IMG/VR virus record: IMGVR_UViG_3300020049_005939
Coordinates: 1-64,000 of that record
Direction: 5' to 3' (one strand)
Origin: a virus
Lineage: Duplodnaviria; Caudoviricetes
Length of the DNA: 64,000 nucleotides
The position numbers and the translations under genes are program-made. Shown piece by piece: positions 8,477-47,697 of the stretch (its first letter is position 1; each line of letters begins with the position of its first letter). The notes beneath the pieces are model-generated. The model made no database searches and was not told where the DNA came from. It worked only from the letters and a program-made list of their open reading frames with translations.

Positions 8477-8741
8477 GTATGGAAATATACCAGAAGAAGT
8501 GTTGTATACTGAGTTTAGAGACATTGACGAAGACCCTGCTTCTTTAAAAGACCTCATTGATTTCTGTCTTGAAGACGACGAATTCATCATTGACGCTAAA
8601 TGGCACATGTCTATGTCTCATGAACAGGAAGCGTACTTAGAATCATTTACAGCATGGACAGAAAATAACGTGTTGATGTTGATTATTAACGGAACGCTTG
8701 GCGCTTACTTAGCAAAGGTAAAGAGAAACCCACAATGGTAG
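8463..8741 (+). CDS. Hypothetical protein
   Basis: Acidic 92-aa ORF. Confidence 0.55.
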   Translation: MIMNKYGNIPEEVLYTEFRDIDEDPASLKDLIDFCLEDDEFIIDAKWHMSMSHEQEAYLESFTAWTENNVLMLIINGTLGAYLAKVKRNPQW

Positions 8742-9034
8742 GATTGTTAGTATTTTCTTTATATGTAATAATTGCGCTAGTTGTTTACATTGGCCTGTAT
8801 TTACATAGAGAAAAAATTAATCAAGTTCCCGGAGATTTTTTTGAAGTTCCGATGGCTCTTCTTTGGCCAGCTATGGTTCCTTTTGCTGTTTTTTTTGTTT
8901 TTGTTGTTTATCCGATAGGTCTAGGATTTAACAAACTTAATAAAAAACTAGATGTCTATAAAAATCATCTTGAGTTAATGAAAAGTGATAAAGAATACGC
9001 ATTAAAATATAGGATGAAAAGAAAATTCAAATGA
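8735..9034 (+). CDS. Membrane protein (weak shared C-terminal helix)
   Basis: Two hydrophobic segments with a LLWP motif; paralog-like to 11286-11594. Confidence 0.6.
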   Translation: MVGLLVFSLYVIIALVVYIGLYLHREKINQVPGDFFEVPMALLWPAMVPFAVFFVFVVYPIGLGFNKLNKKLDVYKNHLELMKSDKEYALKYRMKRKFK

Positions 9035-10569
9035 GTAATCCATTAATCTATGGGAAAAATCCTATTGAACGAGTTGTTTCTGTAGAACCTATGGATGATT
9101 ACTGTGAATTATTTATTGAGCATTCGGATCACATTGAATCGAAGATCGTACCACATAGGTATTGGATACTGTCTCATTCAGACTTAGGCGGATGCTCCAA
9201 GCTTAAAGGTAACCTTCACTATAAATACGGTAAACAGTTTACTCGCTGGAGTGACTATCTGAATTACAAAAAGAAGCACTACAACGCTGACACATATTTA
9301 TCTTTTGACTTTAAAGAAGCGTTCATGATTAAAGATGGGGTAACCTACTTCAAAGGTCTTACTCCTAAAGATGTTTCTATATTATCATTCGATTTAGAGA
9401 CAACATCACTTAGCCCTAATACCGATTCAGCAAAAGTCCTTCTCATTAGTACTACATATAGAAAGAACGATAAGATTGAAAGAAACTTATTTTGTTATGA
9501 TGAATATAATACTCAGGGTGATATGCTCGAAGCCTTTTGTGAATACGTTAGAGAGCTTAATCCATCTATTCTAACCGGCCATAATATAATGGGGTTCGAT
9601 CTTCAGTACCTACAAGGCATTGCTGATAAGGAAGGTATTAAGCTTCATTTAGGGAGAGATGGATCTGCCGCAAGATTTGATGAAAGAGAATCAAAGTTTC
9701 GCAAAGAAGCTGCTCAGTTTATTCATTTTAAGAAATGTAGAATTTACGGTAGAGAAATCATTGACACTATGTTCTTGTCTATTAACTATGATAGAGCAGC
9801 TCGCAAATATATAAGCTACGCTTTGAAAAGTATTATTAAACAAGAAGGTTTGGAAAAAGAAGACCGGACTTTCTACGACGCTAACAACATTCGTCATAAC
9901 TATAAAGATCCGGTTGAATGGGAAAAGATTAAAGAGTACTGTAAGGACGACTCTGACGATAGTTTAAAGCTGTTTGATTTAATGATTTCGCCATTCTTTT
10001 ATTTGACCCAATCAATTCCTAAGTCTTTTCAACAGATGAACGAGTCAGCTAGCGGATCGCAGCTAAACTCGATGCTAGTTAGATCATACCTACAGGATGG
10101 CCACAGTATTCCAAAGGCTGATGTTGCTGAAAAGTTTGAAGGTGCCATTTCACACGGTGTTCCCGGAATTTACACAAACGCCTTTAAGATTGACGTGGCT
10201 TCTTTGTATCCATCTATTATGCTTGAGTATGGAGTGTACTGTAAAGCAAAAGATCCTAATAAGAACTTTCTTAGTATTCTAGAGATTTTTACAACAGAGC
10301 GACTAAAGAATAAAAAACTGTTTAAAGAAACTAACGATGAGAAATACGATTACATCCAGAACGCGCAAAAGATTGTGATTAACAGTCTTTATGGATTTAT
10401 GGGAGCAGAAGGATTAAACTTCAACTACCCAGAAGGGGCAGCGTTTGTTACTAAGAAGGGAAGAGAAATCTTAGGACAAGCGATCGAATGGGCAACTGGA
10501 ATGAATTACAAGGATTGGAGAAACACCTTTGAAGAAAAAGAAGACGAAATCGAAGAAGAAGTTGTTTAG
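9031..10569 (+). CDS. polB: Family B DNA polymerase, N-terminal subunit (3'-5' exonuclease, motifs A and B)
   Basis: SFDLETT, GHNIMGFDLQYL, YCKDD, DVASLYPSIM, KIVINSLYGFMG; ends before motif C. Confidence 0.9.
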   Translation: MSNPLIYGKNPIERVVSVEPMDDYCELFIEHSDHIESKIVPHRYWILSHSDLGGCSKLKGNLHYKYGKQFTRWSDYLNYKKKHYNADTYLSFDFKEAFMIKDGVTYFKGLTPKDVSILSFDLETTSLSPNTDSAKVLLISTTYRKNDKIERNLFCYDEYNTQGDMLEAFCEYVRELNPSILTGHNIMGFDLQYLQGIADKEGIKLHLGRDGSAARFDERESKFRKEAAQFIHFKKCRIYGREIIDTMFLSINYDRAARKYISYALKSIIKQEGLEKEDRTFYDANNIRHNYKDPVEWEKIKEYCKDDSDDSLKLFDLMISPFFYLTQSIPKSFQQMNESASGSQLNSMLVRSYLQDGHSIPKADVAEKFEGAISHGVPGIYTNAFKIDVASLYPSIMLEYGVYCKAKDPNKNFLSILEIFTTERLKNKKLFKETNDEKYDYIQNAQKIVINSLYGFMGAEGLNFNYPEGAAFVTKKGREILGQAIEWATGMNYKDWRNTFEEKEDEIEEEVV

Positions 10570-10822
10570 TTGCTCTTACCTTGGTGTAAAATGCTGGGTT
10601 CTTGGTGATGCCTGTGCCACAGGGACTATTAGCCGAGTTCCAAGTACAATGATACCCCCCGCTAAGTTTGAAATATCTAGAATCTCTGATAAAGAAACTT
10701 CATATTATATAGATTTTGATGACTTTGAATTTAGTCCTCGCGTATCCGAGAAAACATTCAGAAAAGAATGGACTGAGCATAAACTTAAAGAGAAGCTATC
10801 AGAGGTATTTGATGAAACTTAA
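10529..10822 (+). CDS. Small protein with shared C-terminal helix; paralog of 46937-47215
   Basis: YLGVKCWVLGDAC; tail FRKEWTEHKLKEKLSEVFDET; start uncertain. Confidence 0.65.
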   Translation: MKKKKTKSKKKLFSCSYLGVKCWVLGDACATGTISRVPSTMIPPAKFEISRISDKETSYYIDFDDFEFSPRVSEKTFRKEWTEHKLKEKLSEVFDET

Positions 10823-11066
10823 ATGCGATTACACTAGTTATAAATGGTGGATGTTAAATGACCTAACCGGCTACACAGACCGACTTTATTTGGGTACTCC
10901 GACTAAGGTGAATACAACATGCCATACTAAATATTTTATTTCTATAGTAAGAGGCAAAAGAATATATGTCATTAATGGCATACCCACAACAAAAGAAGAA
11001 TTCTATAAACAATTTCGCGATGAACCTATTAGAATAATGAGAAAAATATTTGATGACAAGGATTAA
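10812..11066 (+). CDS. Small protein with degenerate shared tail
   Basis: YKWWMLND; tail EEFYKQFRDEPIRIMRKIFDD. Confidence 0.6.
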   Translation: MKLKCDYTSYKWWMLNDLTGYTDRLYLGTPTKVNTTCHTKYFISIVRGKRIYVINGIPTTKEEFYKQFRDEPIRIMRKIFDDKD

Positions 11067-11289
11067 ATACATCAAACACAAAGGATACACAGAATCTAAA
11101 CACTGGTATTTCCTTAATAACACCCTCTACAAGATCTATATCAATGATAACACTTTATATTTAAAATCTATGTCAAATCAATTGACTGTTATAGAAAAAG
11201 ATGTTACAATTAGTAAGGCTAAGAAATTAGCTAAAAAATATTTAATGGATAATAAAGTTAAATTTTATGATGGGATTAGATTAAAATGA
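11050..11289 (+). CDS. Hypothetical protein
   Basis: Coupled ORF. Confidence 0.55.
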   Translation: MMTRIKYIKHKGYTESKHWYFLNNTLYKIYINDNTLYLKSMSNQLTVIEKDVTISKAKKLAKKYLMDNKVKFYDGIRLK

Positions 11290-11594
11290 CTATCTTTCTT
11301 TACATCCTTGAGGGTATGTTTGCCTACACCCTAACGGCCTTAGTTATATTTGGATGGTTGACATATAAAGATCCTATGGATGAGAGGATAAACTATTTAT
11401 TGTCCTGGGTGTGGCCGATCACCTTTTCACTGGCTGTGCTTTTTTGGCTAGTAAAACCATTCAGTTTTGCTTTTACTAGTGTTCAAATCTGGGCGCAAGA
11501 GAAACGCAAACAAAGGGACCATTTCTTATCCTTATCTCCAGAAGAACAGTCTAGATATAAACTTCAAAAGAAATTAAAGAATAACTTTAAATGA
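11286..11594 (+). CDS. Membrane protein with shared C-terminal helix
   Basis: Two TM segments; tail RYKLQKKLKNNFK. Confidence 0.65.
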   Translation: MTIFLYILEGMFAYTLTALVIFGWLTYKDPMDERINYLLSWVWPITFSLAVLFWLVKPFSFAFTSVQIWAQEKRKQRDHFLSLSPEEQSRYKLQKKLKNNFK

Positions 11595-11881
11595 CACATC
11601 ATGAATTTGTATCAGCGGATATGCATACGTTAAGAGTAGCAACTAAAAACTATCCTAATGGTGTGCCTGCTTTTTATGAAAAACAAAACCTATATGAATT
11701 ACATACTAAATATCTCATACACACCTCTCTTCATTGCCCAGATAGCTGGGCAGTTAAAACTCCCTCTGGTTACGTTTCATATTGGCTTAATGGAAAACAA
11801 TGCATAACACCCGATGAAATTAATCCAATACTTGCAATGGAAAAAATGAAAGATGTGTTTTCGGACGTAGACGATGATTAA
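11591..11881 (+). CDS. Small protein with degenerate shared tail
   Basis: Tail MEKMKDVFSD. Confidence 0.6.
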   Translation: MTHHEFVSADMHTLRVATKNYPNGVPAFYEKQNLYELHTKYLIHTSLHCPDSWAVKTPSGYVSYWLNGKQCITPDEINPILAMEKMKDVFSDVDDD

Positions 11882-12287
11882 ACTAGAACCTAACACATTA
11901 GTTCAGTCTGCTTCAGGACATGAATGGAAATTCATTGAGTATTACGATGGTGACAAAGAGAAGTGGATGGACATGAAGACTGGACTAGTTTGGTATGATG
12001 TTGAGGATGGTATGATGAATCATCGTAAAGCTATTGAACTATTTAACACTGATGATAAACGATTGCCTACTAAAGAAGAGTGGGAAGAAGCAGAGAAGCA
12101 TGAAATTAGATTTGTATTACCTAATTTTGACAATATGTGGTTCTTGTCTTCGTCGGTTCACCCCGGCTTCTCCAATGTCGCCTACGTCTTCAGTGGGCGG
12201 GATGGCGACATCGTCACCGGCCTCCGTGACGTCGCCGGCTATTCGGTTCGTTGTATTTCGAGTAAATCGAAAAGGGCGCGGCGCTAG
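11874..12287 (+). CDS. DUF1566/C-type-lectin-fold protein, copy 2, DGR-like variable region at about 12129-12257
   Basis: DMKTGLVW, RLPTKEEW, FLSSS, AY.F.G, SVRC; no signal peptide. Confidence 0.8.
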   Translation: MIKLEPNTLVQSASGHEWKFIEYYDGDKEKWMDMKTGLVWYDVEDGMMNHRKAIELFNTDDKRLPTKEEWEEAEKHEIRFVLPNFDNMWFLSSSVHPGFSNVAYVFSGRDGDIVTGLRDVAGYSVRCISSKSKRARR

Positions 12288-12333
12288 CGTGGAATAATCA
12301 TAAGATGCTTAAGAAACTTAAGGATATCTTTTA

Positions 12334-12621
12334 ATGAAAAAAATGTTTTTATTTTTCAATACAATGAATAGATATAGAATAGTTGGAAACATTGTTCATA
12401 TATCTACCCCAAGAGAATCAAACAAAAAAGAACACCCATTATCCCGAGAATTATTTCGAGAAAGAGCATCTAAGATCTTTGTTGTTTGGAAATTTTTGTT
12501 CCCCGAATATGAATATAACGGAAAAAAAGTTTCTAGAGAAACCTTCAAAAAAGAACTAAAAAAATATACCGAGAAACAAAGATTAACACTAAAATTAATG
12601 AATTCTTTCGATGAAACTTAA
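12334..12621 (+). CDS. Small protein with shared C-terminal helix
   Basis: Tail FKKELKKY...RLTLKLMNSFDET. Confidence 0.6.
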   Translation: MKKMFLFFNTMNRYRIVGNIVHISTPRESNKKEHPLSRELFRERASKIFVVWKFLFPEYEYNGKKVSRETFKKELKKYTEKQRLTLKLMNSFDET

Positions 12622-12970
12622 ATACTTTAAATTAGCAAAAAAGATGTCCAAGTTTAGCACCCATTCCCAGCATCAATTGGGAGCGGTCATAGTTCGTAAA
12701 ACTCAAATAGTTGGGTTAGGTTTTAATCAAATTAAAACTCATAGCAAAAGCCCCCATCCATATAAGTCTATACACGCAGAGTTCTCTGCTATTCTCAATA
12801 GTGGAGAATCTGATCTAAAGAATCACGATATTTACATCTATAGAGAAAAGAAAGATGGAACACTGGGAGATTCTTTCCCTTGTACAGTTTGTCTTAAAAT
12901 GTTAACAGATCTTAACATAGGTAACATCTTTTACATTAAAAATAACCAATTTGAGAAGCATCGTGTATAA
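12611..12970 (+). CDS. Zn-dependent cytidine/dCMP-type deaminase
   Basis: LGAVIV, HAEFSAI, PCTVC. Confidence 0.85.
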   Translation: MKLKYFKLAKKMSKFSTHSQHQLGAVIVRKTQIVGLGFNQIKTHSKSPHPYKSIHAEFSAILNSGESDLKNHDIYIYREKKDGTLGDSFPCTVCLKMLTDLNIGNIFYIKNNQFEKHRV

Positions 12971-13238
12971 ATCGGGGTATTGTATAGATGGGTGGCATTC
13001 TAAGCGATATTACATATTTAATGACGTAATGCTCATTGGTAGAAAAATCCAAAGATCGGCTTTAGTCGCTTCTAATGCTACTCATTGGAGTGTCATTTAT
13101 GACAAGTATAATTGTTTTTTCTTAGTAAATGGAGTAACGGATAAAAAACACTTGACAAGAATTTCTATAAAAAAAGAGTTGCAAAATAGAAAACTTAAAC
13201 ATATACTCATAGATGTCTTTAAGGAGGACAAAGAATGA
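12951..13238 (+). CDS. Small protein with shared C-terminal helix
   Basis: Tail IKKELQNRKLKHILIDVFKED; start uncertain. Confidence 0.55.
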   Translation: MRSIVYKSGYCIDGWHSKRYYIFNDVMLIGRKIQRSALVASNATHWSVIYDKYNCFFLVNGVTDKKHLTRISIKKELQNRKLKHILIDVFKEDKE

Positions 13239-14308
13239 AACCAACTAAGATTTTTGATATGATGGATTTGGCAATGCGAGCAAGGGATTTGGGATTAACC
13301 TTTAACCCCCTTTTTGTGGGACCCCCGGGGTTAGGTAAGTCGGAGATTGTTCAACAATGGTGCGGTAAAGAGAAGATTCCATTTATTGATCTACGAGCTG
13401 CTCTTTTGGAAGCTCCCGATCTAATCGGCTTCCCTGTTGTAACAATGATCGCCGGTAGACAGACCACCGTACACGCTACGCCCGACTTTTGGCCTACAGA
13501 AGGCAGAGGAGTCATCTTCCTCGACGAAGTTAATAGGGGAACTACAAGCGTTATGAACTGCTTCATGCAGCTACTAACTGATCGTAAAGTTAAACAATAC
13601 ACCCTTCCACAAGGATGGGTTGTTGTTGCGGCCATTAACCCTGAAAACGCGGAGTATGACGTTAATACTATGGACCCAGCTCTTCGAGATCGATTTGAGC
13701 TATTTGAAGTATCTTATGATAAGTCTTCTTTCATGGAATTCATGAAGTCTAATGACTGGGATAAATCTGTAGTCAATTTTATCGAATCTAATGTGTGGCA
13801 ATACGTTCGACCAGAAGAGTTGAGCAATGTCCCTGGAGCTAAGTACCTATCTCCACGAACCTTCTCAAAGCTCAACACTGCGCTTAAAGCGGGTATTAAC
13901 TCTAAAGAAGATGAATTGATTATCTTTGAATCAGTTCTCGGACGAAATACAGGCTCTTCTTTCTTTCATTTTCGACATAACGAGTCTCCTGTGCTATTTA
14001 AAGACTTAGTTACCGATACTAAGAATGCTCTTAAGAAACTCAAGAAGTACAGCAATCCTGAGGATCTTAAGAATGGATACATCAGTGTTACTGTTAAGGA
14101 TATTATCGAGAATGATGGAGAACCAACTTTAATCACTGACGAACTGTTGATTGATATCCTTAAGATTATTCCTGCTGACCAAGCTCCCCAATTGGTATTG
14201 GACCTAGCCCTTAAACGCGGCGACCATAAAGGGGAAATCTTCGAACGACTTAAGAAAGATAAAGATCTTAAGAAGCTACTTTCTACTATACTTCACCATA
14301 AAGGGTAG
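13235..14308 (+). CDS. MoxR-like AAA+ ATPase
   Basis: GPPGLGKS, FLDEVNR, AAINP, MDPALRDRF. Confidence 0.9.
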   Translation: MKPTKIFDMMDLAMRARDLGLTFNPLFVGPPGLGKSEIVQQWCGKEKIPFIDLRAALLEAPDLIGFPVVTMIAGRQTTVHATPDFWPTEGRGVIFLDEVNRGTTSVMNCFMQLLTDRKVKQYTLPQGWVVVAAINPENAEYDVNTMDPALRDRFELFEVSYDKSSFMEFMKSNDWDKSVVNFIESNVWQYVRPEELSNVPGAKYLSPRTFSKLNTALKAGINSKEDELIIFESVLGRNTGSSFFHFRHNESPVLFKDLVTDTKNALKKLKKYSNPEDLKNGYISVTVKDIIENDGEPTLITDELLIDILKIIPADQAPQLVLDLALKRGDHKGEIFERLKKDKDLKKLLSTILHHKG

Positions 14309-14336
14309 TGTATAGTAATTGTATTGGAGGTAATTA

Positions 14337-15560: not shown

Positions 15561-15955
15561 AAAAACTAGAGCCTAATACATTAGTTCAGTCTGTCTCTGG
15601 TCATCAATGGAAGTTCATTGAATATTACGATGGTAATAAAGAAAAGTGGATGGATGTGCAGACTGGACTAGTTTGGTATGATGTCGAAGACAAGTCAATG
15701 GATCATTATAAAGCTATTGAACTATTTAACACTGATGATAAACGATTACCAACTAGAGAAGAGTGGGAAGAAGCAGAGAAACATGAGATTAGATTTGTAT
15801 TACCTAATTTTAACGATAAGCGGTTCTGGTCTTCGTCGGTTCACCCCGACTACTCCTATTACGCCTACTACTTCGTTGGGCGCGGTGGAGGCTTCGGCCA
15901 CGGTGTTCGCGGCTTGGTCTACGACGGTTCGGGCCGTTGTGTGGGAAAACTATGA
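15557..15955 (+). CDS. DUF1566/C-type-lectin-fold protein, copy 3, DGR-like variable region at about 15812-15943
   Basis: DVQTGLVW, RLPTREEW, FWSSS, AY.F.G, GRC; high DNA identity to copy 2. Confidence 0.8.
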   Translation: MKKLEPNTLVQSVSGHQWKFIEYYDGNKEKWMDVQTGLVWYDVEDKSMDHYKAIELFNTDDKRLPTREEWEEAEKHEIRFVLPNFNDKRFWSSSVHPDYSYYAYYFVGRGGGFGHGVRGLVYDGSGRCVGKL

Positions 15956-16137
15956 AAAACACTATACTAGAATATAACACTGGTGAATATCTAGGTCAAC
16001 TTGGTGAGAATCGATTTCTCTTTACAAAAGGTTCCACTAACCATATACTATTTACAATGAAGTCAGAAAAAGAAATCCTTTTTGATTTAGCTAAAAAACA
16101 ATTAGAGGAAGTGTTTAATGATGAAGAAACTGATTAA
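15952..16137 (+). CDS. Small protein with degenerate shared tail
   Basis: Tail LAKKQLEEVFNDEE. Confidence 0.55.
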   Translation: MKNTILEYNTGEYLGQLGENRFLFTKGSTNHILFTMKSEKEILFDLAKKQLEEVFNDEETD

Positions 16138-16654: not shown

Positions 16655-17050
16655 ATGAAACGTAAATACTACAAAGAAGACTTTATAGAATTAAAATTAC
16701 CTAACTTAAATTCTTTAAGGGGTTCAACTAAAAAACAAATGGGACCTATGGAAAAACTCCAAGATTGGTTTATTAAAGAAGTTGGATTAGAAACTGCTAG
16801 AGGTTCTTGGTTAAAGCTTCATCTCCGATTAGAAGAAGAAAAAAAGATTGACAAACTTACTTACAAGTATTGTAAATCTAAATACCCTTGGGTAACTAGA
16901 CAAGGTGCAAATTCAGCAGTGGCCATGTATAATCTACAACTTGCTCCCGCTAGTTTTTTATCAAACCCTAAATGGACCCGGAAGGGTTACGCTTATCTTA
17001 AAAAAGAACCAATTGATAAACTGAAAGAGGCATTTCCATATGAAGTATAA
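16655..17050 (+). CDS. Hypothetical protein
   Basis: 131-aa ORF. Confidence 0.6.
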   Translation: MKRKYYKEDFIELKLPNLNSLRGSTKKQMGPMEKLQDWFIKEVGLETARGSWLKLHLRLEEEKKIDKLTYKYCKSKYPWVTRQGANSAVAMYNLQLAPASFLSNPKWTRKGYAYLKKEPIDKLKEAFPYEV

Positions 17051-18417: not shown

Positions 18418-18418
18418 C

Positions 18419-20797: not shown

Positions 20798-21540
20798 AAA
20801 AAAATAAATTAGAAAAGATTCTTATTGTTAGTGATACCCATCGACCTTACCATAATAAAAAAGCGTGGGCTTTGATGCTAAGGGCAGCAAAAGAATTCAA
20901 ACCTGATACGGTTGTGATTATGGGAGACTACGCAGATTTTTTTGACGTGTCTTCCCACTCTAAAAGTCCTGAACGTCGGTTTCAATTAGCTGAAGAGATT
21001 GCCGATGTGAAGGTCGGCCTACAAGAATTGAAAGATCTGGGAGCAAGTAGACAAATTTTTATTGAAGGTAACCACGAAAATAGACTAGTTCGGTACCTAG
21101 CCGATAAAGCTCCCGAACTGTTTAAACTAATTAACATACCTGATATTTTAGAACTTAAGAAGTTTGACTTTGAATATGTTCCTTATAAAGAATACACCAC
21201 TATTGGTAAGATGAATTTTACCCACGATCTAGGACAAGCAGGCAGAACGGCTCACCTAAAGGCTTTGGATAGCTTCCAAGACAATATTATCATTGGACAT
21301 GTTCATCGTATGCATTACTCTGTTGAAGGCGATGCTAAGGGCGTTAAGCATCTCGGAGCTTCATTTGGTTGGCTTGGTGATGAAAATGAAGTTGATTATA
21401 TGCATAAGGCAAAGATTAAACGCGAATGGTGTTTAGGATTTGGTATTGCATACCATAATAAAACTACTGGCAATGTTTATGCTGTTCCAGTTCCTATTAT
21501 TGAAAATACTTGTCTTATTGAGGGTAAATTAATTAAATGA
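20794..21540 (+). CDS. Calcineurin-like metallophosphoesterase
   Basis: SDTH, GDYAD, GNHE, THD, GHVH. Confidence 0.9.
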   Translation: MKKNKLEKILIVSDTHRPYHNKKAWALMLRAAKEFKPDTVVIMGDYADFFDVSSHSKSPERRFQLAEEIADVKVGLQELKDLGASRQIFIEGNHENRLVRYLADKAPELFKLINIPDILELKKFDFEYVPYKEYTTIGKMNFTHDLGQAGRTAHLKALDSFQDNIIIGHVHRMHYSVEGDAKGVKHLGASFGWLGDENEVDYMHKAKIKREWCLGFGIAYHNKTTGNVYAVPVPIIENTCLIEGKLIK

Positions 21541-21842
21541 TTAAGTTCATTTACACAGAAGGGTCAAAATTTTATATTGTCGGCGAAATCTGTGTAAGAA
21601 AATTATTATATGAAACTGAAGAAATATATGATGACGAACGACTTAGAAATCTTATGGTTCACAATCACTATTTCAACAATACAGTTTACGCCATTGAATG
21701 TAATCCAGATAAAGAGCATAGATACTTTATTCCTGGGGATCTGACCGGTAGCGTTGCTTCAATTGTATCAGAAGAATTATTCCGGCATCATTGGAAAGAA
21801 TATAGACTAAAACAGAAAATGAAGGACATATTCAATGAGTAA
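21537..21842 (+). CDS. Small protein with shared C-terminal helix
   Basis: Tail FRHHWKEYRLKQKMKDIFNE. Confidence 0.7.
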   Translation: MIKFIYTEGSKFYIVGEICVRKLLYETEEIYDDERLRNLMVHNHYFNNTVYAIECNPDKEHRYFIPGDLTGSVASIVSEELFRHHWKEYRLKQKMKDIFNE

Positions 21843-22158
21843 CCAAAACTATTACACCGTTTATTCCCATGCCGTATCCTCTAACGATATCACCATTGGA
21901 ACTTCAAGTACAACACCAAATACAAATTTATCAGTGGAGGACCATTTACGACGCGAGTTAAAATCAACGTCCTTAAATTTTAAAGATTTTAGAATGAGAT
22001 ATGTAACAAATGATTACCCATCGGCTTATAATAGTTTTTATGAATATAAATTTGTAAATGAACATACTGAATATAGATATAAAACAACTTACGATTTAAT
22101 ATCCTTTATTAAAGAAGAACAAATGAAAGAACTTATGAAAGAGACATTTAATGAGTGA
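21835..22158 (+). CDS. Small protein with degenerate shared tail
   Basis: Tail EQMKELMKETFNE. Confidence 0.6.
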   Translation: MSNQNYYTVYSHAVSSNDITIGTSSTTPNTNLSVEDHLRRELKSTSLNFKDFRMRYVTNDYPSAYNSFYEYKFVNEHTEYRYKTTYDLISFIKEEQMKELMKETFNE

Positions 22159-22701: not shown

Positions 22702-22702
22702 T

Positions 22703-24031: not shown

Positions 24032-24790
24032 ATGAATATTAAAAATTTTATTTTATCAGTTTCAGTGGGAGTAGCGTTGACTACTCTCCTTTTCTCTTTA
24101 AGGGATGTTCAAGTCCTCCAATCCCCATCTCTTAAAGATGATGTCATTCGGGTAGCTCTTCCCCCTTCTACCCAACCATCAGCTATTCCCACTGACCCCC
24201 TATCTGGAGCTAAAGTTATTAAAAAGCTTCAACTAAACACCGATCGAGTGGTAAATTTATCTGGTCCTATTATGGACTCGCACGTTGCTGTTGAGATTTC
24301 TAGCAAATCTTCTTCAGAAGAACCTCTGTATGTTTTAATTAATTCACCTGGAGGCTCTATTTTAGCGGGAGAACAGATTTTATCCGCAATCGAATCGTCT
24401 AAGTCTCCAGTCTACACGGTTTGTATTGGAGTATGTGCTTCTATGGCAGCGATTATCTCTCAGTATGGTAAAGAACGATATGGAGTAGACCGAAGTGTTC
24501 TTATGTTCCACGACGCTGCTGGTGGGGTTCAAGGTTATCTTCCACATATGACCTCTCTAATTGAGATGCTTAATAAGAAAATTGATAAAATGGACTCTTT
24601 TATAGCTAGACGAGCAGGATTGTCTTTAGATGCCTTTAAAGCTGAACAATCAAAAAATATCTGGATTGATTCGGAAGATGCTGTCCGTCGTAATTTTCTA
24701 GACTCATTAGTTAGTCTTAATCAAGATATCATTAAACAAGAAGCTACCCCAACGGAGAATAGAACTAAACAATTCTATTTGAATAATTAA
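24032..24790 (+). CDS. ClpP-like (S14) protease with N-terminal membrane anchor
   Basis: INSPGGS, CASMAA (Ser), MFHD (His); N-terminal TM plus Pro-rich linker. Confidence 0.8.
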   Translation: MNIKNFILSVSVGVALTTLLFSLRDVQVLQSPSLKDDVIRVALPPSTQPSAIPTDPLSGAKVIKKLQLNTDRVVNLSGPIMDSHVAVEISSKSSSEEPLYVLINSPGGSILAGEQILSAIESSKSPVYTVCIGVCASMAAIISQYGKERYGVDRSVLMFHDAAGGVQGYLPHMTSLIEMLNKKIDKMDSFIARRAGLSLDAFKAEQSKNIWIDSEDAVRRNFLDSLVSLNQDIIKQEATPTENRTKQFYLNN

Positions 24791-37994: not shown

Positions 37995-37997
37995 ATA

Positions 37998-39224: not shown

Positions 39225-39227
39225 TTA

Positions 39228-39632: not shown

Positions 39633-39645
39633 TTTATATTCTTTC

Positions 39646-40092
39646 TTATTTAATTAGATTGTGGATTAGTAGACCTAATATACTAATGGTTTGCACAATC
39701 ATCAAACCCATTAAACCTTTTGGTAATTTTGATTCTATCATCTGAACAACATTTGATCCAGTTGAAACTTCTTTAATTTCAATCTCTTTAACAATAACTT
39801 GTTTTTCAATTTCTTTAATTTGAATTTCTTTAACTATAACAGGAACTTCTATTCTCACTATTTGGGTTTCTTTTATAATTACAGGTTTTTCAATTTCTTT
39901 AATTTCAATCTCTTTAACAATAACTTGAGTAGGAACTTCAACAACTTTAATCTCTTGTTGAGGAATCTCAGCTTTAATTGAAAGATTTTCTCCGCCAACT
40001 AAAATAACTCGTTGAGCATCATTTTCCTCATCAAATGTGTAAGTAGGAAGTTGCCCAGGATCAAGAGATGTGTATGAAATATTTTTAGCCAT
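39646..40092 (-). CDS. Protein with VIVKEIEIKEIEK repeats and C-terminal TM
   Basis: Three to four V/I-K/E alternating repeats, also visible as DNA repeats at about 39775-39930. Confidence 0.6.
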   Translation of the reverse strand: MAKNISYTSLDPGQLPTYTFDEENDAQRVILVGGENLSIKAEIPQQEIKVVEVPTQVIVKEIEIKEIEKPVIIKETQIVRIEVPVIVKEIQIKEIEKQVIVKEIEIKEVSTGSNVVQMIESKLPKGLMGLMIVQTISILGLLIHNLIK

Positions 40093-40093
40093 C

Positions 40094-42895: not shown

Positions 42896-42904
42896 TCATT
42901 CCTC

Positions 42905-43372
42905 TTAGTCTAAGCGTTCAACTGAATCTACATTGGAGCGAGCAGCATCGTCGTATTCTACTCTAAGTCTAATCAATAAATTGGCAAATTTTGTACTCAC
43001 CGAACCCGAAGCGGTAGCGGCAGCGGTTAAAGTGATTTGATCTGGACCATCAATTGAGAGAATCTGCGTTAAAACTGGAACATTCACACTAAATACATAC
43101 TGACCCACTTTAAGATCAACTTGTGCGTTAGTTAACCCAGTTACAACTGCCGATAGATTGGTGGTAGTAATATTCTGAGTTTTAACTATGTCTAATGAAT
43201 AGAAATCGTCGATAGCTGGGGTAGTCTGTACAATATCTCTATAGACTTTATGACCAACTTTTAGAGCAGCGAAGCCTGAAGTACCGATAGTGCCATCGTT
43301 ATTGTTAGCAGCTTTTTGGAGAACTTGTCCAAAATCTTTTTCACTTAACGGTTTTGAAGTTACATCTGACAT
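42905..43372 (-). CDS. Structural protein
   Basis: Beta-rich 155 aa. Confidence 0.55.
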   Translation of the reverse strand: MSDVTSKPLSEKDFGQVLQKAANNNDGTIGTSGFAALKVGHKVYRDIVQTTPAIDDFYSLDIVKTQNITTTNLSAVVTGLTNAQVDLKVGQYVFSVNVPVLTQILSIDGPDQITLTAAATASGSVSTKFANLLIRLRVEYDDAARSNVDSVERLD

Positions 43373-43373
43373 G

Positions 43374-43553
43374 TTAGCCTTTACTCATTAACTTTTTAAG
43401 ACGTTTAAATGTCGGCAAATTTGAATAAGCCATTTTTCCAGTGTTTTCTTTGGTGTACTCATCAGCTTTTAAAGGACTAAGACCGGGAGCTTTAATACCA
43501 CCACTAGCCACGCCTTTCATAAATCTGAATTGTTTTTTAGAAACAGCAGGCAT
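43374..43553 (-). CDS. Small conserved phage protein (59 aa)
   Basis: MPAVSKKQFRFMKGVA matches the widespread MP..S.KQ..FM.A.A family. Confidence 0.65.
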   Translation of the reverse strand: MPAVSKKQFRFMKGVASGGIKAPGLSPLKADEYTKENTGKMAYSNLPTFKRLKKLMSKG

Positions 43554-43556
43554 CTA

Positions 43557-43829
43557 TTACCCTTTAAAATAATCAAAAACTTTATCAATCAAAGATAGTT
43601 TCTTTGGTTCATAATAGTCTGTTAAATTACCTTCTTTACCTAAAATCCAACTCTCATTGCCGCTACACTTAGCTAGTTTTAATTTTACATCTAAATCATA
43701 ACAATTGTTTGTCACGATCCTTTGTCCATTTTTATAATCAGAGTGATTATAAACTTCACCAACTAAAACATTGTGAAATTTAACCCAATTTTTAAGAATA
43801 GGAGTTTTAAGTTTCATATCCATAAACAA
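43557..43829 (-). CDS. Conserved phage hypothetical protein
   Basis: GEVYNH...NG.RI.T pattern. Confidence 0.55.
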   Translation of the reverse strand: MFMDMKLKTPILKNWVKFHNVLVGEVYNHSDYKNGQRIVTNNCYDLDVKLKLAKCSGNESWILGKEGNLTDYYEPKKLSLIDKVFDYFKG

Positions 43830-44280
43830 TCAATTGAGCTGCGGCTGTACCGATTAGGGTTGCTAAATATTTAGCCGCTGGAGCCTGAAAAAACACATTA
43901 ACTACGTTTTTTGCTATAGAAGAGGATGAACTATTGTTACCGCTGTAAACAGCGACTTCGAAATTCGCATCACCACAAGGGTAAACTGGGCTAGTTGGAC
44001 CAGATGCTGAATCTAATCCAACATCGGTATCACCATATAGTAAAGATGCATGTGTGAATATCGTTGTTGTGTTAGAATGCATATCAATAGCGTGAACTGT
44101 GAAAGTTTTTCCAGCAGTTACTTGATACCCAGATGAACTATTCATTTTTCTTAAAGTAGTATAACGGTTGCTGGTTGCAACCGCTCCACCCAAGATAATG
44201 AGATTAGTTAAATCAACTAGAGTAACTCCATTTACTGTTAGCGTTTCGATGTTCCCGATTGTACCGATTGGTTTTGCCAT
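43807..44280 (-). CDS. Structural beta-sandwich protein
   Basis: YQV.AGK.F motif shared with 44291-44836. Confidence 0.55.
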   Translation of the reverse strand: MAKPIGTIGNIETLTVNGVTLVDLTNLIILGGAVATSNRYTTLRKMNSSSGYQVTAGKTFTVHAIDMHSNTTTIFTHASLLYGDTDVGLDSASGPTSPVYPCGDANFEVAVYSGNNSSSSSIAKNVVNVFFQAPAAKYLATLIGTAAAQLIVYGYET

Positions 44281-44290
44281 ATATTACTCC

Positions 44291-44836
44291 TTAAACTGCT
44301 ACTAATTTGCCGATGACAGTAAACGACAGCCCGCCACCGCCATCTGATTGCATAAACGGAAATAAATTTTGATCAAACACAATTGGAATTTCCCAAGAAC
44401 ACAGCGTAATTATGGACCCTGATGCCGTTGATGGAAGACTGTAGACATACCGCGAAGTGTATCCGCTTTGATACTTTGCACCTGTTGGAACCGTCGCATC
44501 AGCATCCGTAAACGAGGCGGTAGCTGTGCCAAATTGGAAGTTCACTTGAATGTCTAAACCTGGGTTTGTTGCTATCACTTTAACCGCGTGAAATTTAAAA
44601 CCGTTAGGAACTTGGTAAGCTGTCCCGTCCCCAGACGCGCCATCTAGTTGATGTAGCCTGTAGAACTGATTATCGGTTCCTGAGTTAATTTGCGCATGTA
44701 AAGAAATAAATTCCCCAATTGCGCCCGTAGGAATAACAGTTGTTGATTTTATGTTTAAAGTTTGCGATGTACTAGTGACTAAATCTGCGCCACCAATACT
44801 CACTACATTACTTACATTACCTGAACCATTTGCCAT
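44291..44836 (-). CDS. Structural beta-sandwich protein
   Basis: YQVPNGFKF motif; paralog-like to 43807. Confidence 0.55.
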   Translation of the reverse strand: MANGSGNVSNVVSIGGADLVTSTSQTLNIKSTTVIPTGAIGEFISLHAQINSGTDNQFYRLHQLDGASGDGTAYQVPNGFKFHAVKVIATNPGLDIQVNFQFGTATASFTDADATVPTGAKYQSGYTSRYVYSLPSTASGSIITLCSWEIPIVFDQNLFPFMQSDGGGGLSFTVIGKLVAV

Positions 44837-44861
44837 AATTTATTCCTTTATCCTTTAAAAT

Positions 44862-46151
44862 TTATTCTTCAATGGCTTCTAGTAAGTTACCAGTGCCATT
44901 ATCAATGAAAGTTTTTCCGTTTGCTAACCAAATATCCCTGACTACAATACCATCAGCTCCACTGTTAAGAGTAATATCATCCGTCACTTTAACATCTTTT
45001 AAGCTGCTATAATCAGCGGAGCTTGTGAATGTTACTGTTCCAGAGATGATGCTACCATGTCCTAAACCATCAATTTTTAATTGTTTAGACACAGTGATAT
45101 TTGCTGTATGAGTTCCTCTTAGGAAGGTGATTCGATCACCGTTACTAGCGGCAGTTTGAGCACTAGCAAAAGATGAGTAACCAGCAGCACCAGCTAAAAC
45201 GTCTGCGGCAGATCCAACTGTAAATGGGTAGATTGCTGTAAATGCGCTAGTTCCAGTTCCAGCACCAATAACGAAATCAATCATTTCAACACTAAGCGAA
45301 GCGGGTGCTCCACCTGCAATAGAAAGAAGATCTACCGTTAAAATATCACCCGCAACTAGTGATAATGCTGCTGATAAGGATGAGCTAGACGATGCGGGAG
45401 CACTTGAAGCTGAAGCTATTGATGCTGTAGCAGAAGCTAGTAAAGATCCTGATCTATATTGATTCACTTGGATAGTCGTGCTACCTGAAGAACCTGAATC
45501 AATTAAGCTCATGGAAACTGATGTCAAGCTTTGTGTAGCTTGAACCATGTGTGAACCTTCAATGTTTGTATAAGGAATTAGAGCGTTCTCTAAGGTCCAA
45601 CGAACTAGAAGGCTATTAGTTCCGCCAGCGCCAGAACCGATCTCAACTTCAGTACCACCAGCATTTAAGGTGTAAAGCTTATTATCAGCTTTAGCATAAA
45701 TTTTTAATCGACCAGCAGCAGGATTAGTACCCGGGGTAGTAATCTCTAAAACATTTAATTCGGACTCTAAACGGATGTCACCAGTTCCATTTGGATCTAA
45801 TGAAATGTTACCATTAGCGTTAGTTGATGAAATCGTATTACCATTAACATTGATATTATCAACATCAAGATCTGTATTGACTACTACAGTTCCGGTTCCA
45901 TTAGGGGATAGGTTAATATCACCGTTGGTATCTAGGGAAGAAACTGTATTACCGTCAACTTTGATATTATCAATGGTGACTTCTGCTGCCACTTGAGTTT
46001 CAGCAATTAAAGGAGAAGAAGACGAACCGTTGTGAAATCTAATTTTATTATCAGAACTAAGGACTTCTACTTCACCTAAACTGTCTGCTGCGGAAGCAGA
46101 CTTAGGTTTAATCCTAATTCCTTCAAAAAATTTAGTAAAATTTAAAGCCAT
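44862..46151 (-). CDS. Tail fibre-like protein
   Basis: Repeats I.VDGNT.SS..TNG.I.L.PNGTG; C-terminal beta-helix start. Confidence 0.7.
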   Translation of the reverse strand: MALNFTKFFEGIRIKPKSASAADSLGEVEVLSSDNKIRFHNGSSSSPLIAETQVAAEVTIDNIKVDGNTVSSLDTNGDINLSPNGTGTVVVNTDLDVDNINVNGNTISSTNANGNISLDPNGTGDIRLESELNVLEITTPGTNPAAGRLKIYAKADNKLYTLNAGGTEVEIGSGAGGTNSLLVRWTLENALIPYTNIEGSHMVQATQSLTSVSMSLIDSGSSGSTTIQVNQYRSGSLLASATASIASASSAPASSSSSLSAALSLVAGDILTVDLLSIAGGAPASLSVEMIDFVIGAGTGTSAFTAIYPFTVGSAADVLAGAAGYSSFASAQTAASNGDRITFLRGTHTANITVSKQLKIDGLGHGSIISGTVTFTSSADYSSLKDVKVTDDITLNSGADGIVVRDIWLANGKTFIDNGTGNLLEAIEE

Positions 46152-46164
46152 TTAAATACTCCGA

Positions 46165-46653
46165 TTAATTCTGTAATAGAGCCTGTGCTGAAACTGTAAG
46201 TCGTCCAACGTGGTTAGTCGTACCAATTTGAGTAGTGGTAAACTTAACCTGTCCAGTATCAGCTATGCTAAAAACAATCTCGCCATCACCAGCGAAGTTC
46301 TGTATCAATTCCCATTTACTTCCAATAGATCCATTGGGATTGTAAACAACGATAATGTTGCCACTTTCATATGCACTAGAGGTGGGGCTGTCGGCAGTGC
46401 GAAACAGGCTATAACGAATGAACGCAGCTCTCACGAAGGCTGTGGGGAAGTTTAAAGCCTGTATATCCACTGCGGTACCCGGGTTAGACGAGTCGATGTT
46501 AATAACCTGTGGCGACACGTCATAAGGACCCACAACGCCCGATAAGGCTTCGGATACAAGTGTGGCAAATTGTATGACGGCGGGTGCCCAATTTGGGTCG
46601 GCGGCTGAATCGGGGAAATCTATGATTGTACCGCTAATGGTGAGTTGTGGCAT
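46165..46653 (-). CDS. Structural protein
   Basis: 162 aa; C-terminal F.I...GQV..T.T shared with the end of the 40094 fibre. Confidence 0.55.
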   Translation of the reverse strand: MPQLTISGTIIDFPDSAADPNWAPAVIQFATLVSEALSGVVGPYDVSPQVINIDSSNPGTAVDIQALNFPTAFVRAAFIRYSLFRTADSPTSSAYESGNIIVVYNPNGSIGSKWELIQNFAGDGEIVFSIADTGQVKFTTTQIGTTNHVGRLTVSAQALLQN

Positions 46654-46655
46654 TC

Positions 46656-46709
46656 AGTTCCTTAGATTGAACAAAACTATATATAATAGTTGTTAACCAC
46701 TAAGGAACT
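46656..46709 (-). promoter_or_regulatory. RBS-sequestering hairpin with late motif in its loop
   Basis: Perfect 10-bp inverted repeat AGTTCCTTAG/CTAAGGAACT; the 3' arm contains the AAGGA SD of 46653; TTAACAACT at 46688-46696. Confidence 0.65.
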
Positions 46710-46728
46710 AATTGATATGATTGATTAA

Positions 46729-46944
46729 TTAATCTTTAAAGATATCTTTAAGTTTTGTCTTTAATTTATAGGCTCTATATTCTTTAATAAAATCTTCTTT
46801 TCTGAGAGACTTCGAATTATATACCCAATATAAAGTAAAGGCGCTCGTTTTATAAACTCTGAATAATTGATCGTGTCCTTCTTTACTCCACCCACCATTG
46901 ACAAAAATAGCGATATTGTCGCCAATATAAACACCTCTAGTCAT
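46729..46944 (-). CDS. Small protein with shared C-terminal helix
   Basis: Tail FIKEYRAYKLKTKLKDIFKD. Confidence 0.7.
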   Translation of the reverse strand: MTRGVYIGDNIAIFVNGGWSKEGHDQLFRVYKTSAFTLYWVYNSKSLRKEDFIKEYRAYKLKTKLKDIFKD

Positions 46945-47215
46945 TGAAGATGTCCTTTATTTTTTTAGAAAGCTTCAGTTTTAACCATTCACTTCTAAAT
47001 TCATCTTCTGAGACATAGTGATAATCAATTTGGTATTCAGGTCCATGACATTCTTTTTCAGGAAAAATCGTTATCATAAATCTAGGAATGTCATTAGATT
47101 CGTAATTTGTGTCATATTCATCAATTGGAATTTCAATAGCAGTGGAACTGCATGCGTCATTTAATATCCATAACTTATAACCAAGGTATATTGTACTGTA
47201 AAGTTTATTTCTCAT
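46937..47215 (-). CDS. Small protein with shared C-terminal helix
   Basis: YLGYKLWILNDAC; tail FRSEWLKLKLSKKIKDIFND. Confidence 0.7.
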   Translation of the reverse strand: MRNKLYSTIYLGYKLWILNDACSSTAIEIPIDEYDTNYESNDIPRFMITIFPEKECHGPEYQIDYHYVSEDEFRSEWLKLKLSKKIKDIFND

Positions 47216-47423
47216 TAAATATATCTTTTAATTTCTTTTGTAGTTTGTATTTACGATATTCTTTAATGAAGATTTCTTTAGTCACTCGCCCGTCCCAACT
47301 GGGTCCAATAAAATAAGTCTTATTATAAGTGTAGTATCTAAATAAAATATGGTCCTTGGTAATGCCTACCATTGGTGATATTCCAATATTATCCCCGTAG
47401 ATAATCTTATAATACCTATCCAT
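47205..47423 (-). CDS. Small protein with shared C-terminal helix
   Basis: Tail FIKEYRKYKLQKKLKDIFNEK. Confidence 0.7.
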   Translation of the reverse strand: MDRYYKIIYGDNIGISPMVGITKDHILFRYYTYNKTYFIGPSWDGRVTKEIFIKEYRKYKLQKKLKDIFNEK

Positions 47424-47697
47424 TAAACGCCTTCTTTAGTTTAAGAGTTAGTTGATACTTAGCCCATTCCTCGTAAAATTGTTTTTCTGTTATGCTAGTT
47501 GTTGATCCTGGTAACCAGTGTACACGCCTCGGCGCAAAGCCACCACCCGCCAAAAATTTATTAAACATATCTTTGTTCATGTAGTCCGAATTCACAGGTT
47601 TAAAATTTGAAGAAATAGGTCTTAAAGCCCTAACTATAACATTTCCACATACGTAATACCCTATTCCGTGTGATTGTATCTTTTTAAATCCCAGCAT
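47416..47697 (-). CDS. Small protein with shared C-terminal helix
   Basis: Tail FYEEWAKYQLTLKLKKAFNG. Confidence 0.7.
   Translation of the reverse strand: MLGFKKIQSHGIGYYVCGNVIVRALRPISSNFKPVNSDYMNKDMFNKFLAGGGFAPRRVHWLPGSTTSITEKQFYEEWAKYQLTLKLKKAFNG

What the first reader, a model, noticed from the sequence alone, without database searches (positions are those of the whole stretch)
8735..47697. Shared C-terminal helical 'box' on 10-15 otherwise diverse small proteins: candidate modular adaptor or targeting system
Seen: tails of 21537 FRHHWKEYRLKQKMKDIFNE, 46729 FIKEYRAYKLKTKLKDIFKD, 46937 FRSEWLKLKLSKKIKDIFND, 47205 FIKEYRKYKLQKKLKDIFNEK, 47416 FYEEWAKYQLTLKLKKAFNG, 10529 FRKEWTEHKLKEKLSEVFDET, 11286 RYKLQKKLKNNFK, 12334 FKKELKKY..RLTLKLMNSFDET and 12951 KKELQNRKLKHILIDVFKED, with weaker versions in 8735, 10812, 11591, 15952 and 21835. 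Consensus: FxxE[WY]xx[YH]KLxxKLKD[IV]FN[DE]. The N-terminal parts include soluble beta-rich domains, TM proteins and (see separate finding) a lectin fold, on both strands and in four loci. Inference: a variable domain plus a constant docking helix, analogous to F-box/SOCS-box adaptors, recruiting one shared partner (the phage MoxR-AAA/vWA pair, AAA ATPase or ClpP-like protease, or a host factor), or acting as a capsid-loading or localisation tag. Alternative: KD-IF-N(D/E) also encodes AAGGA plus ATG for the next gene, so it could be a DNA-level shuffling cassette. However, 46729 keeps the motif with no downstream gene, and the upstream amphipathic half is not explained by an RBS.
Basis: partly seen in the sequence, partly recalled or inferred. 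Interest (0 to 1): 0.88.

Follow-up and report, generated by a model that had tools for sequence, protein, structure and literature searches.

The report
Shared C-terminal helix on phage small proteins
About 28 small early proteins of an uncultured ~85-kb phage have fast-changing, unrelated front parts. All end in the same basic amphipathic helix, whose last turns are written in the same bases as the ribosome-binding site and start codon of the next gene. The family is real and undescribed, and what the helix binds is still unknown.

Summary
Every quoted tail is present. Genome-wide, 28 small ORFs carry the motif: 15 in the window, one running off its end, and the rest in the 11 kb beyond it. 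One orphan tail remnant lies at 12266-12331.

The shared unit is a 22-25-residue helix with the core [KR]-L-K-x-K-[LM]-K-x-[IV]-F. Tail profiles built from one body group find the other groups above all decoys, always 1-6 residues from the C-terminus. The bodies show no cross-group similarity.

The RBS idea is half right. The K-D/K-K codons form the Shine-Dalgarno site and the N-D/E codons hold the next ATG in 20 of 28 cases. However, synonymous codons are randomised among paralogs, other genes show no T preference at the F-codon position, and member 46729 keeps the helix with no coupled gene. So the peptide itself is under selection.

Between strains the bodies change mainly by non-synonymous substitutions (62:20, against 29:57 in neighbouring genes), or are replaced outright. 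The tails stay the same, and one homology break falls exactly on a tail/start junction.

No Pfam, PHROG, PDB or wider sequence relatives were found. The function, a common handle for one partner or surface, is inferred and not shown. Notes from this scan describe the same kind of pattern in jumbo phages.

The parts
8735..9034 (+). Two-TM membrane protein with a weak version of the tail. Its stop overlaps the ATG of the PolB fragment gene (ATGA).
   Evidence: The tail scores only ~1 bit with the cross-validated profiles, against 12.9 with the profile that includes it.
10529..10822 (+). Group A member (beta-rich body) with a strong tail. The next gene's ATG lies in the D-E codons after F.
10812..11066 (+). 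Group A member. The true start is the ATG at 10812, inside the tail of 10529.
11286..11594 (+). Two-TM membrane protein with a clear tail (Y-K-L-Q-K-K-L-K core, as in 47205).
   Evidence: It scores 13.8 bits with the group-A-only profile, above all decoys.
11591..11881 (+). Tail member with a six-residue acidic extension after F. It is followed by lectin copy 2.
12266..12331 (+). Orphan tail remnant: a 22-codon stop-to-stop frame ending in ...K-L-K-D-I-F-stop with no gene body. It abuts the ATG of 12334 and is one base out of frame with lectin copy 2 (11874-12287).
   Evidence: score 18.9, joint third-highest in the genome. The truncated lectin is found letter for letter on 4 contigs.
12334..12621 (+). 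Tail member (weak on its own). The next gene, a dCMP deaminase, starts in the D-E codons after F.
12951..13238 (+). Tail member. F is followed by AAGGAGG and then the ATG of the MoxR-type ATPase gene.
15937..16137 (+). Short weak member. The ATG of the next gene (PagL-like, weak Pfam hit) lies in the F-N-D codons although the ORF runs 5 codons further.
21537..21842 (+). Group A member with the best tail. The AF2 model is three strands, a helix, three strands and a C-terminal helix at residues 79-99.
   Evidence: The ortholog on L003 has 12 non-synonymous and 1 synonymous changes, none in the last 30 codons.
21835..22158 (+). Tail member; its body is not alignable to the groups.
   Evidence: The ortholog has 19 non-synonymous and 5 synonymous changes, with the tail almost unchanged.
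46729..46944 (-). Tail member with no coupled downstream gene (75-nt gap). It keeps K-L-K-D-I-F, but the N codon is K, so there is no ATG.
46937..47215 (-). Group A member.
47205..47423 (-). Tail member (group E).
47416..47697 (-). Group A member (marginal by body, strong by tail).
   Evidence: Ortholog on L007.
63991..64000 (-). 3' end of ORF 63991-64227, which runs off the window. It is a tail member.

Best explanation
Shown: about 28 small genes of this uncultured phage end in one 22-25-residue helix. The phage record is 74.9 kb, and the same phage appears on an 84.9-kb contig. The helix has an N-cap of the type [ST]-x-[DE]-E and a core [KR]-L-K-x-K-[LM]-K-x-[IV]-F. Its last ten residues have a narrow L/M/I/V/F stripe between lysine-rich positions, with position -2 most often acidic.

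Selection on the peptide keeps the helix. The bodies in front of it belong to at least four groups with no detectable similarity: beta-rich, alpha/beta, two-TM membrane, and a remnant behind a lectin gene. They change mainly by amino-acid replacements or are swapped between strains.

The last two turns of the helix share their bases with the Shine-Dalgarno site (AAGGA-like, in the K-D, K-K or K-G codons) and with the ATG (in the N-D/E codons) of the next gene.

Inferred: the helix and the translation start of the next gene are inherited as one unit. That unit is the seam at which gene bodies are duplicated, replaced or exchanged in frame without breaking expression of the next gene. This spreads one tail over unrelated bodies.

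Also inferred: the helix is a constant handle that takes many variable early (host-directed) proteins to one place. The most likely target is an anionic surface, either the inner face of the cytoplasmic membrane or one acidic hub protein.
For: Cross-group tail similarity is above all decoys and always C-terminal, while the bodies are unrelated.

Codon choice among identical residues in paralog tails is close to the genome expectation (0.50 against 0.44, and 0.47 against 0.58). L is coded by TTA, CTT and CTA, and F by TTT and TTC.

The F codon is not a general start-site requirement: T at -4 to -2 is 27-36% in 105 other genes against 44-80% after tail genes. Non-member genes with the same 8-nt overlap lack the motif.

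In 20 of 28 members the next ATG lies within the two codons after F, even when the ORF continues.

Strain comparison gives bodies 62 non-synonymous to 20 synonymous changes, against 29:57 in neighbouring genes (p = 5e-8). The non-synonymous rate is 0.137 per codon in bodies and 0.049 in tails (p = 0.003).

The homology break between strains falls at the 72312-tail/71984-start junction. An island of identity at the 71984 tail sits inside otherwise unalignable DNA.

An orphan tail is kept as the leader of gene 12334.

AF2 predicts a C-terminal helix of about 21 residues in two groups whose bodies have different topologies.

The mean hydrophobic moment of the last 11 residues is 0.52 against a background of 0.28, with net charge +2.2. 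Two members are membrane proteins.
Against: No partner, localisation or binding was tested. The group B model has low confidence (pLDDT 58), so the claim of different folds rests mostly on sequence and on the two-TM proteins.

Bodies evolve so fast that one common ancestor cannot be excluded. Only one sharp mosaic breakpoint and one remnant support the seam idea.

Paralog tails share too little DNA identity for ordinary homologous recombination. Between close strains, the 3' 170 nt of 21537 are identical even at synonymous sites, so an added RNA- or DNA-level constraint, or a recent transfer, is possible.

The hydrophobic positions over the whole helix do not form a single stripe.
Confidence: 0.55

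Rival explanations
1. All members descend from one small ancestral protein by tandem duplication. The C-terminal helix is simply the slowest-evolving structural element of one fold, packing on the sheet. There is no common partner and no modular swapping.
For: Members lie in tandem arrays and are of similar size (66-133 aa). Within group A the bodies are homologous. Bodies diverge extremely fast, so similarity could be erased. The helix has the highest pLDDT in the group A model. Many bodies begin with a similar hairpin-like pattern of hydrophobic-x-V-G-x (by eye).
Against: Two members are two-TM membrane proteins, and a remnant lies behind a lectin-type gene. Group B is predicted as helix plus three strands, not the group A topology (low confidence). 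hhalign finds no relation between the body profiles. The part conserved across all groups is the distal half of the helix, while the proximal half is group-specific (F/W against A/L).
Confidence: 0.25
2. The motif is a by-product of the next gene's translation start region (A-rich leader, AAGGA, spacer, ATG) read in the upstream frame. It is selected at the RNA or DNA level only.
For: SD and ATG sit inside the tail in 20 of 28 members. AAG is enriched at the K before D (9 of 20, against 29% genome-wide). The orphan tail is kept in front of 12334 with no body. Where no gene follows (46729) the N codon is lost.
Against: Synonymous sites are randomised while L, K, I/V and F are kept. Leu is coded by codons that differ at positions 1 and 3. 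The 105 other start regions lack the T-rich -4 to -2 and the A-rich leader. Non-members with identical overlaps lack the motif. Conservation extends 15 or more residues upstream of any ribosome footprint. 46729 keeps the helix uncoupled. In the 71984 ortholog pair the tail has four synonymous changes and keeps most residues.
Confidence: 0.07
3. The helix is a degradation or unfolding tag read by a phage AAA+ ATPase or protease, so that early proteins are cleared at a set time.
For: The phage encodes a MoxR-type ATPase, a vWA partner, a second AAA protein and a ClpP-fold protease. The tag is C-terminal and basic.
Against: The ClpP-fold gene matches head-maturation proteases best. The aromatic residue is not at the very C-terminus and the extensions vary from 1 to 7 residues. 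Nothing links the genes beyond being in the same genome.
Confidence: 0.06

Closest known systems
Viral multigene families with a variable domain and a constant C-terminal box (poxvirus ankyrin/PRANC F-box-like proteins; cellular F-box and SOCS-box adaptors)
   Same: There are many paralog-like genes in one virus. The front parts are variable and fast-evolving, the C-terminal module is short and constant, and the inferred role is to bring different cargoes to one partner.
   Different: There is no sequence or profile match. The module here is a single helix of about 22 residues rather than a three-helix box. Bacteria have no SCF or Cullin system. No partner is known.
C-terminal membrane-targeting amphipathic helices (MinD, FtsA type); from general knowledge
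   Same: The helix is C-terminal and basic, with about four large hydrophobic residues between lysines and a high hydrophobic moment. It also occurs directly after the TM segments of two membrane proteins.
   Different: The helix here is longer, its proximal half is group-specific, and it is followed by acidic residues. Membrane binding was not tested.
Translationally coupled overlapping genes (ATGA and 8-nt overlaps with the SD inside the upstream ORF; review PMC12548453, title and abstract seen)
   Same: The SD and ATG of the next gene lie in the last 6-8 codons.
   Different: Coupling alone does not give a conserved 22-residue helix. Other coupled junctions in the same genome lack it.
Conserved gene-boundary 'linker' sequences proposed for modular phage evolution (Susskind and Botstein; lambdoid boundary sequences); from general knowledge
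   Same: A short conserved element sits at gene boundaries and coincides with a mosaic breakpoint and with gene replacement.
   Different: Here the conservation among copies is in the peptide, not the DNA. Whether it promotes recombination is unproven.
Lineage-specific small-paralog expansions with a shared C-terminal motif in jumbo phages
   Same: These are early small proteins with hypervariable bodies and one shared C-terminal helix. In one note the tail is also the place where genes are gained or lost.
   Different: The motifs and phage lineages differ and there is no sequence relation. This phage is not a jumbo phage, yet about one gene in five carries the tail.

Membership tests
F-box / PRANC / SOCS-box adaptors | Match to the Pfam box profiles in the C-terminal region | tested here: not met
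   hmmscan of 20 members against Pfam-A at E up to 0.1 gave no such family.
F-box / PRANC / SOCS-box adaptors | The box binds a shared hub (Skp1 or Elongin type) | not testable with these tools
   No complex prediction or binding assay was available.
Known phage protein families (PHROGs) | Profile match at E <= 0.001 | tested here: not met
   20 members were scanned and only chance-level hits at E >= 0.009 appeared.
Single paralogous family (one fold) | Detectable homology of the bodies once the tail is removed | tested here: inconclusive
   This holds within group A (E of 3e-7 to 1e-3). It fails between groups A, B, D and E (hhalign probability below 1%). The profiles are shallow and the bodies evolve very fast.
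Single paralogous family (one fold) | Same predicted topology in different groups | tested here: inconclusive
   Group A is three strands, a helix, three strands and a helix (pLDDT 74). Group B is a helix, three strands and a helix (pLDDT 58). Two members have two TM segments.
Translational-coupling overlap | SD-like motif and start codon of the next gene inside the last codons of the upstream ORF | tested here: met
   In 20 of 28 members the ATG lies within two codons after F, and AAGGA, AAAGA or AGGGA lies in the K-D, K-K or R-D codons.
DNA-level shuffling cassette / boundary linker | Nucleotide conservation of the element among copies beyond what the protein requires | tested here: not met
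   The same-codon fraction is about what genome codon usage predicts.
DNA-level shuffling cassette / boundary linker | Mosaic breakpoints coincide with the element | tested here: met
   There is one sharp break at the 72312/71984 junction and a tail island, and one orphan tail behind an inserted lectin gene. The sample is small.
Membrane-targeting amphipathic helix | C-terminal amphipathic helix with a basic interface | tested here: met
   The mean hydrophobic moment is 0.52 against 0.28, net charge is +2.2, and 11 of 28 exceed the 95th percentile. AF2 predicts a helix.
Membrane-targeting amphipathic helix | Binds lipid bilayers or localises to the membrane | not testable with these tools
   This needs fusion localisation or a liposome assay.
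Sliding-clamp-binding C-terminal peptides | Q-L-[SD]-L-F type motif, and a clamp to bind | tested here: inconclusive
   The consensus lacks Q and has different spacing (columns). No beta-clamp or gp45-type gene was found in the record, which is 87% complete. The host clamp was not examined.

The most novel reading that the evidence does not exclude
The helix is a universal docking tag. More than 20 fast-evolving phage early proteins, built on unrelated bodies, are all delivered by this one helix to a single hub, either a host or phage protein or the inner membrane surface. This would be a bacterial-virus counterpart of F-box/PRANC-type adaptor families. Because the tag is co-encoded with the next gene's start site, it would double as an in-frame seam for exchanging the variable heads.
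Probability: 0.25. Interest if true: 0.85.

Novelty: new variant of a known kind. Interest (0 to 1): 0.6.

Why it matters
Small early phage genes are the largest pool of unknown function in virology, and many are expected to be host-takeover or anti-defence factors.

A peptide shared by one gene in five gives an experimental handle on the whole set at once. One bait, one localisation test or one partner search would serve all members.

The double use of the same bases, as the end of a protein helix and as the ribosome-binding site and start of the next gene, is a clear case of dual coding. It could explain how new gene bodies are slotted into a tightly coupled operon without loss of expression.

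It also adds a non-jumbo example to a pattern that this scan has noted in jumbo phages.

Tried and rejected
Pfam and PHROG scans of 20 members gave nothing.

blastn and tblastn against the phage collection gave no relatives of the region or of 21537. TerL has only distant matches, the best being 34% identity to a Silvanigrella phage.

The word-indexed protein search and the exhaustive HMMER search of 1.84 billion representatives found only this phage, two short metagenome fragments (P0009, P0011) and one repetitive 1471-aa protein (P0010). I take P0010 as spurious.

The IMG/VR locus search failed or found nothing. A profile of all 28 members added only one diverged contig.

Foldseek and VIA-align on the group A model found no credible fold (best Z 4.6). 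The ESM Atlas gave no usable feature hits and only low-confidence structural look-alikes.

The clamp-binding idea has no support: no clamp gene was found and the motif differs. The reading of the ClpP-fold gene as a partner is weakened, because it looks like a head-maturation protease.

Three literature searches found no description of such a tail.

Chance or composition is rejected by the decoys and by two negative-control sequences.


Full report
**Context.** The window is the first 64 kb of a 74,890-bp virus record with GC 38%. CheckV rates the record 87% complete. The same phage occurs on an 84,930-bp metagenome contig. Genes are tightly packed, on the + strand up to about 26.4 kb and on the - strand from there on. 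TerL, portal, capsid and tail genes have only distant relatives. The best is a Silvanigrella phage at 28-34% amino-acid identity. A PagL-like gene (weak Pfam hit) suggests a Gram-negative host.

- After curation there are 28 members.
- Fifteen are in the window, one straddles its end (63991-64227), and twelve lie in 65.4-73.8 kb (locus L001).
- Anchored on the invariant Phe, the columns read [KR](-9), L(-8, 22 of 28), K(-7), K(-5, 21 of 28), L/M(-4, 26 of 28), K(-3, 20 of 28), D/K/E(-2), V/I(-1), F(0, 28 of 28).
- Upstream there is a group-specific half and an N-cap of the type [ST]-x-[DE]-E.

*Cross-validation.* A profile from group A tails alone scores eight proteins above every reversed or shuffled decoy. 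Seven of them are tails of groups B, D and E and of membrane protein 11286, and the eighth is the candidate member 16655-17050. Each hit lies 1-4 residues from the C-terminus. A profile from group D alone does the same for ten proteins, and group B for one.

*Negative controls.* About 25 small genes in the extra 9.4 kb of the long contig have no hit. The AT-rich Silvanigrella phage has none above 4.6 bits. Members 8735, 15937, 12334 and 72613 are weak when taken alone.

**Is it only the ribosome-binding site of the next gene?** Partly.
- In 20 of 28 members the next gene's ATG lies within the two codons after F. The forms are TTY-AAT-GAN, TTY-GAT-GAN and TTT-AAA-TGA.
- An AAGGA-like SD sits in the K-D, K-K or K-G codons.
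- This phase lock holds even when the upstream ORF runs on for 2-5 more codons after the ATG (10529, 10812, 12334, 15937, 66274).
- So the terminal N/D-D/E, and the excess of AAG at K(-3) (9 of 20, against 29% genome-wide), come from the start region.

The rest does not come from the start region.
- Among identical residues in paralog tails, the share using the same codon is close to what genome codon usage predicts: 0.50 against 0.44 for columns -12 to -4, and 0.47 against 0.58 for -3 to 0. Leu uses TTA, CTT and CTA, and Phe uses TTT and TTC.
- The 105 other start regions of the genome show no T preference at -4 to -2 (27-36%, against 44-80% after tail genes) and no A-rich leader.
- Non-members with the same 8-nt overlap, for example 18419, 19389, 1810 and 71746, lack the motif.
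- Member 46729, which has a 75-nt gap and no coupled gene, keeps the helix and has lost only the ATG-bearing N codon.

The peptide itself is therefore under selection.

**One family or a module on different bodies?** With the tail removed, BLAST and an iterated profile unite 21537, 65485, 10812, 46937, 10529 and 70523, with 47416 marginal, as group A. Other groups are visible by eye:
- group B: 66274, 66805, 67094 and 67347;
- group D: 72312, 72613, 72914, 73192, 73491 and 65765;
- group E: a looser set.

Profile-profile comparison of the bodies gives probabilities below 1% for every pair of groups. Two members, 11286 and 8735, have two TM segments.

AF2 on group A (21537, seven-sequence alignment) gives pLDDT 74. 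The model is three strands, a helix, three strands and a C-terminal helix at residues 79-99, which is the most confident part. AF2 on group B (66805) gives only pLDDT 58. It predicts a disordered N-terminus, a helix, three strands and a C-terminal helix at residues 79-100. No solved fold matches the group A model.

The tail therefore sits on at least a soluble beta-rich body and a membrane body, probably on an alpha/beta body too, and formerly on a lectin-type body (see below). Common descent of the soluble groups cannot be excluded, because the bodies evolve very fast.

**Strain comparisons.** Short contigs from ENA samples carry diverged copies (L003, L006, L007).
- In six ortholog pairs the bodies have 62 non-synonymous and 20 synonymous codon changes. 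Four neighbouring non-member genes have 29 and 57 (Fisher p = 5e-8).
- Non-synonymous changes per codon are 0.137 in bodies and 0.049 in tails (p = 0.003).
- L006 is almost 100% identical to the genome over 2.1 kb, apart from a divergent patch in the body of 73192. Alignment is then lost exactly at the junction between the tail of 72312 and the start of 71984. Within the unalignable stretch there is one island of 80-90% identity, which is the tail of 71984. It carries four synonymous changes and keeps most residues.
- The 3' 170 nt of 21537 are identical to L003 while the flanking phosphatase gene differs at about one base in five. This points to recent exchange or an added nucleotide-level constraint.

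**The orphan tail.** The frame at 12266-12331 ends in ...K-L-K-D-I-F-stop and scores 18.9, the joint third-highest value in the genome. It has no gene body and abuts the ATG of 12334.
- It is one base out of frame with lectin copy 2 (11874-12287).
- Copy 1 (ending at 261) keeps a homologous in-frame extension, with one more base at that point.
- The truncated lectin is found letter for letter on four contigs, so it is unlikely to be an error of this one assembly.

A tail can therefore outlive its body as the leader of the next gene. A lectin-type gene either once carried it or displaced its former body.

**How it most likely works.**

*Shown.* There is a constant helix under peptide-level selection. 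The bodies are variable, fast-evolving or exchanged. The last two turns are co-encoded with the next start site. There is one breakpoint and one remnant at the junction.

*Inferred (a), evolution.* Helix and start site are inherited together, so recombination or insertion upstream of the tail yields an in-frame new body on the old tail, with downstream expression intact. This spreads one tail over unrelated bodies.

*Inferred (b), function.* The half conserved across all groups is the distal L...[LM]-K-x-[IV]-F. It has a hydrophobic arc of about 100 degrees between lysine-rich positions, with position -2 most often acidic, a mean hydrophobic moment of 0.52 against a background of 0.28, and net charge +2.2. 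The proximal half is group-specific (F/W against A/L) and faces another way, as expected if it packs on its own body. This fits a common handle for an anionic surface, either the membrane inner leaflet or one acidic partner. It does not prove it. I put about 0.55 on the overall picture and about 0.25 on a true single-hub docking system.

**Comparison and novelty.**
- No member matches a Pfam or PHROG family.
- An exhaustive search of 1.84 billion representatives finds the family only in this lineage.
- The closest concepts are viral multigene families with a constant C-terminal box, C-terminal membrane-targeting helices, coupled overlapping genes and the old idea of a 'linker at gene boundaries'. 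The tail meets only some defining features of each (see Membership tests).
- Unchecked notes of this scan describe analogous shared-tail families in jumbo phages. The kind of pattern therefore recurs, but this motif and lineage are new, and the dual coding with the start site is documented here in detail.

**Limits.**
- Gene calls are my own heuristic.
- Codon-change counts are simple counts, not model-based dN/dS.
- The ortholog sample is small, one AF2 model is weak, and the host is unknown.

Noticed in passing
window 12266-12331 (+), with 11874-12287 and 13-261: The orphan tail remnant is one base out of frame with lectin copy 2. Copy 1 keeps a homologous in-frame extension. The shift point is at TCG-AAA-AGG. 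Whether any ribosomal frameshifting reaches the tail was not tested.
   Followed up: partly
L001:8300-8335 (genome ~72315), compared with L006: A related strain is about 100% identical up to the 72312-tail/71984-start junction and unalignable beyond it, except for a ~60-nt island at the 71984 tail.
   Followed up: yes
window 21675-21842, compared with L003: The 3' 170 nt of gene 21537 are identical between strains, including synonymous sites. The upstream phosphatase gene differs at about 20% of positions. This suggests recent transfer or an extra nucleotide-level constraint.
   Followed up: partly
L010:1-9400 (84.9-kb contig of the same phage): The record in hand is about 87% complete. The longer contig adds roughly 25 small genes, including SLT, PA14, pentapeptide and DUF559 hits. 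None of them carries the tail.
   Followed up: partly
window 47900-47928 (-): An extended -10 sigma-70-like promoter (TTTGCA, 17 nt, TG-n-TATAAT) lies just upstream of the five-gene tail cluster. That cluster sits inside the virion-gene arm, next to a GIY-YIG-like gene.
   Followed up: no
tail column -1, all members: The I/V codon before F avoids a third-position T (ATA, GTG and GTA are preferred, while the genome prefers ATT and GTT). TTC is somewhat enriched for F. This may be avoidance of a T-run in the spacer of the next start site.
   Followed up: no
L001:2057-2287 (-) and L001:1765-2094 (-): The metagenome gene calls show a 76-aa gene (genome 66057-66287) that starts at the ATG inside the tail of 66274. 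They also give a shorter start (66094) for 65765, which removes its apparent N-terminal hydrophobic segment.
   Followed up: partly
window 16655-17050 (+): A 131-aa protein ends in a tail-like ...K-L-K-E-A-F plus 4 residues. It scores 10.8 bits with the group-A-only profile and may be a 29th, longer member.
   Followed up: no
window 24032-24790 (+): A ClpP-fold protease that best matches head-maturation proteases lies in the + strand block, far from the portal and capsid genes.
   Followed up: no
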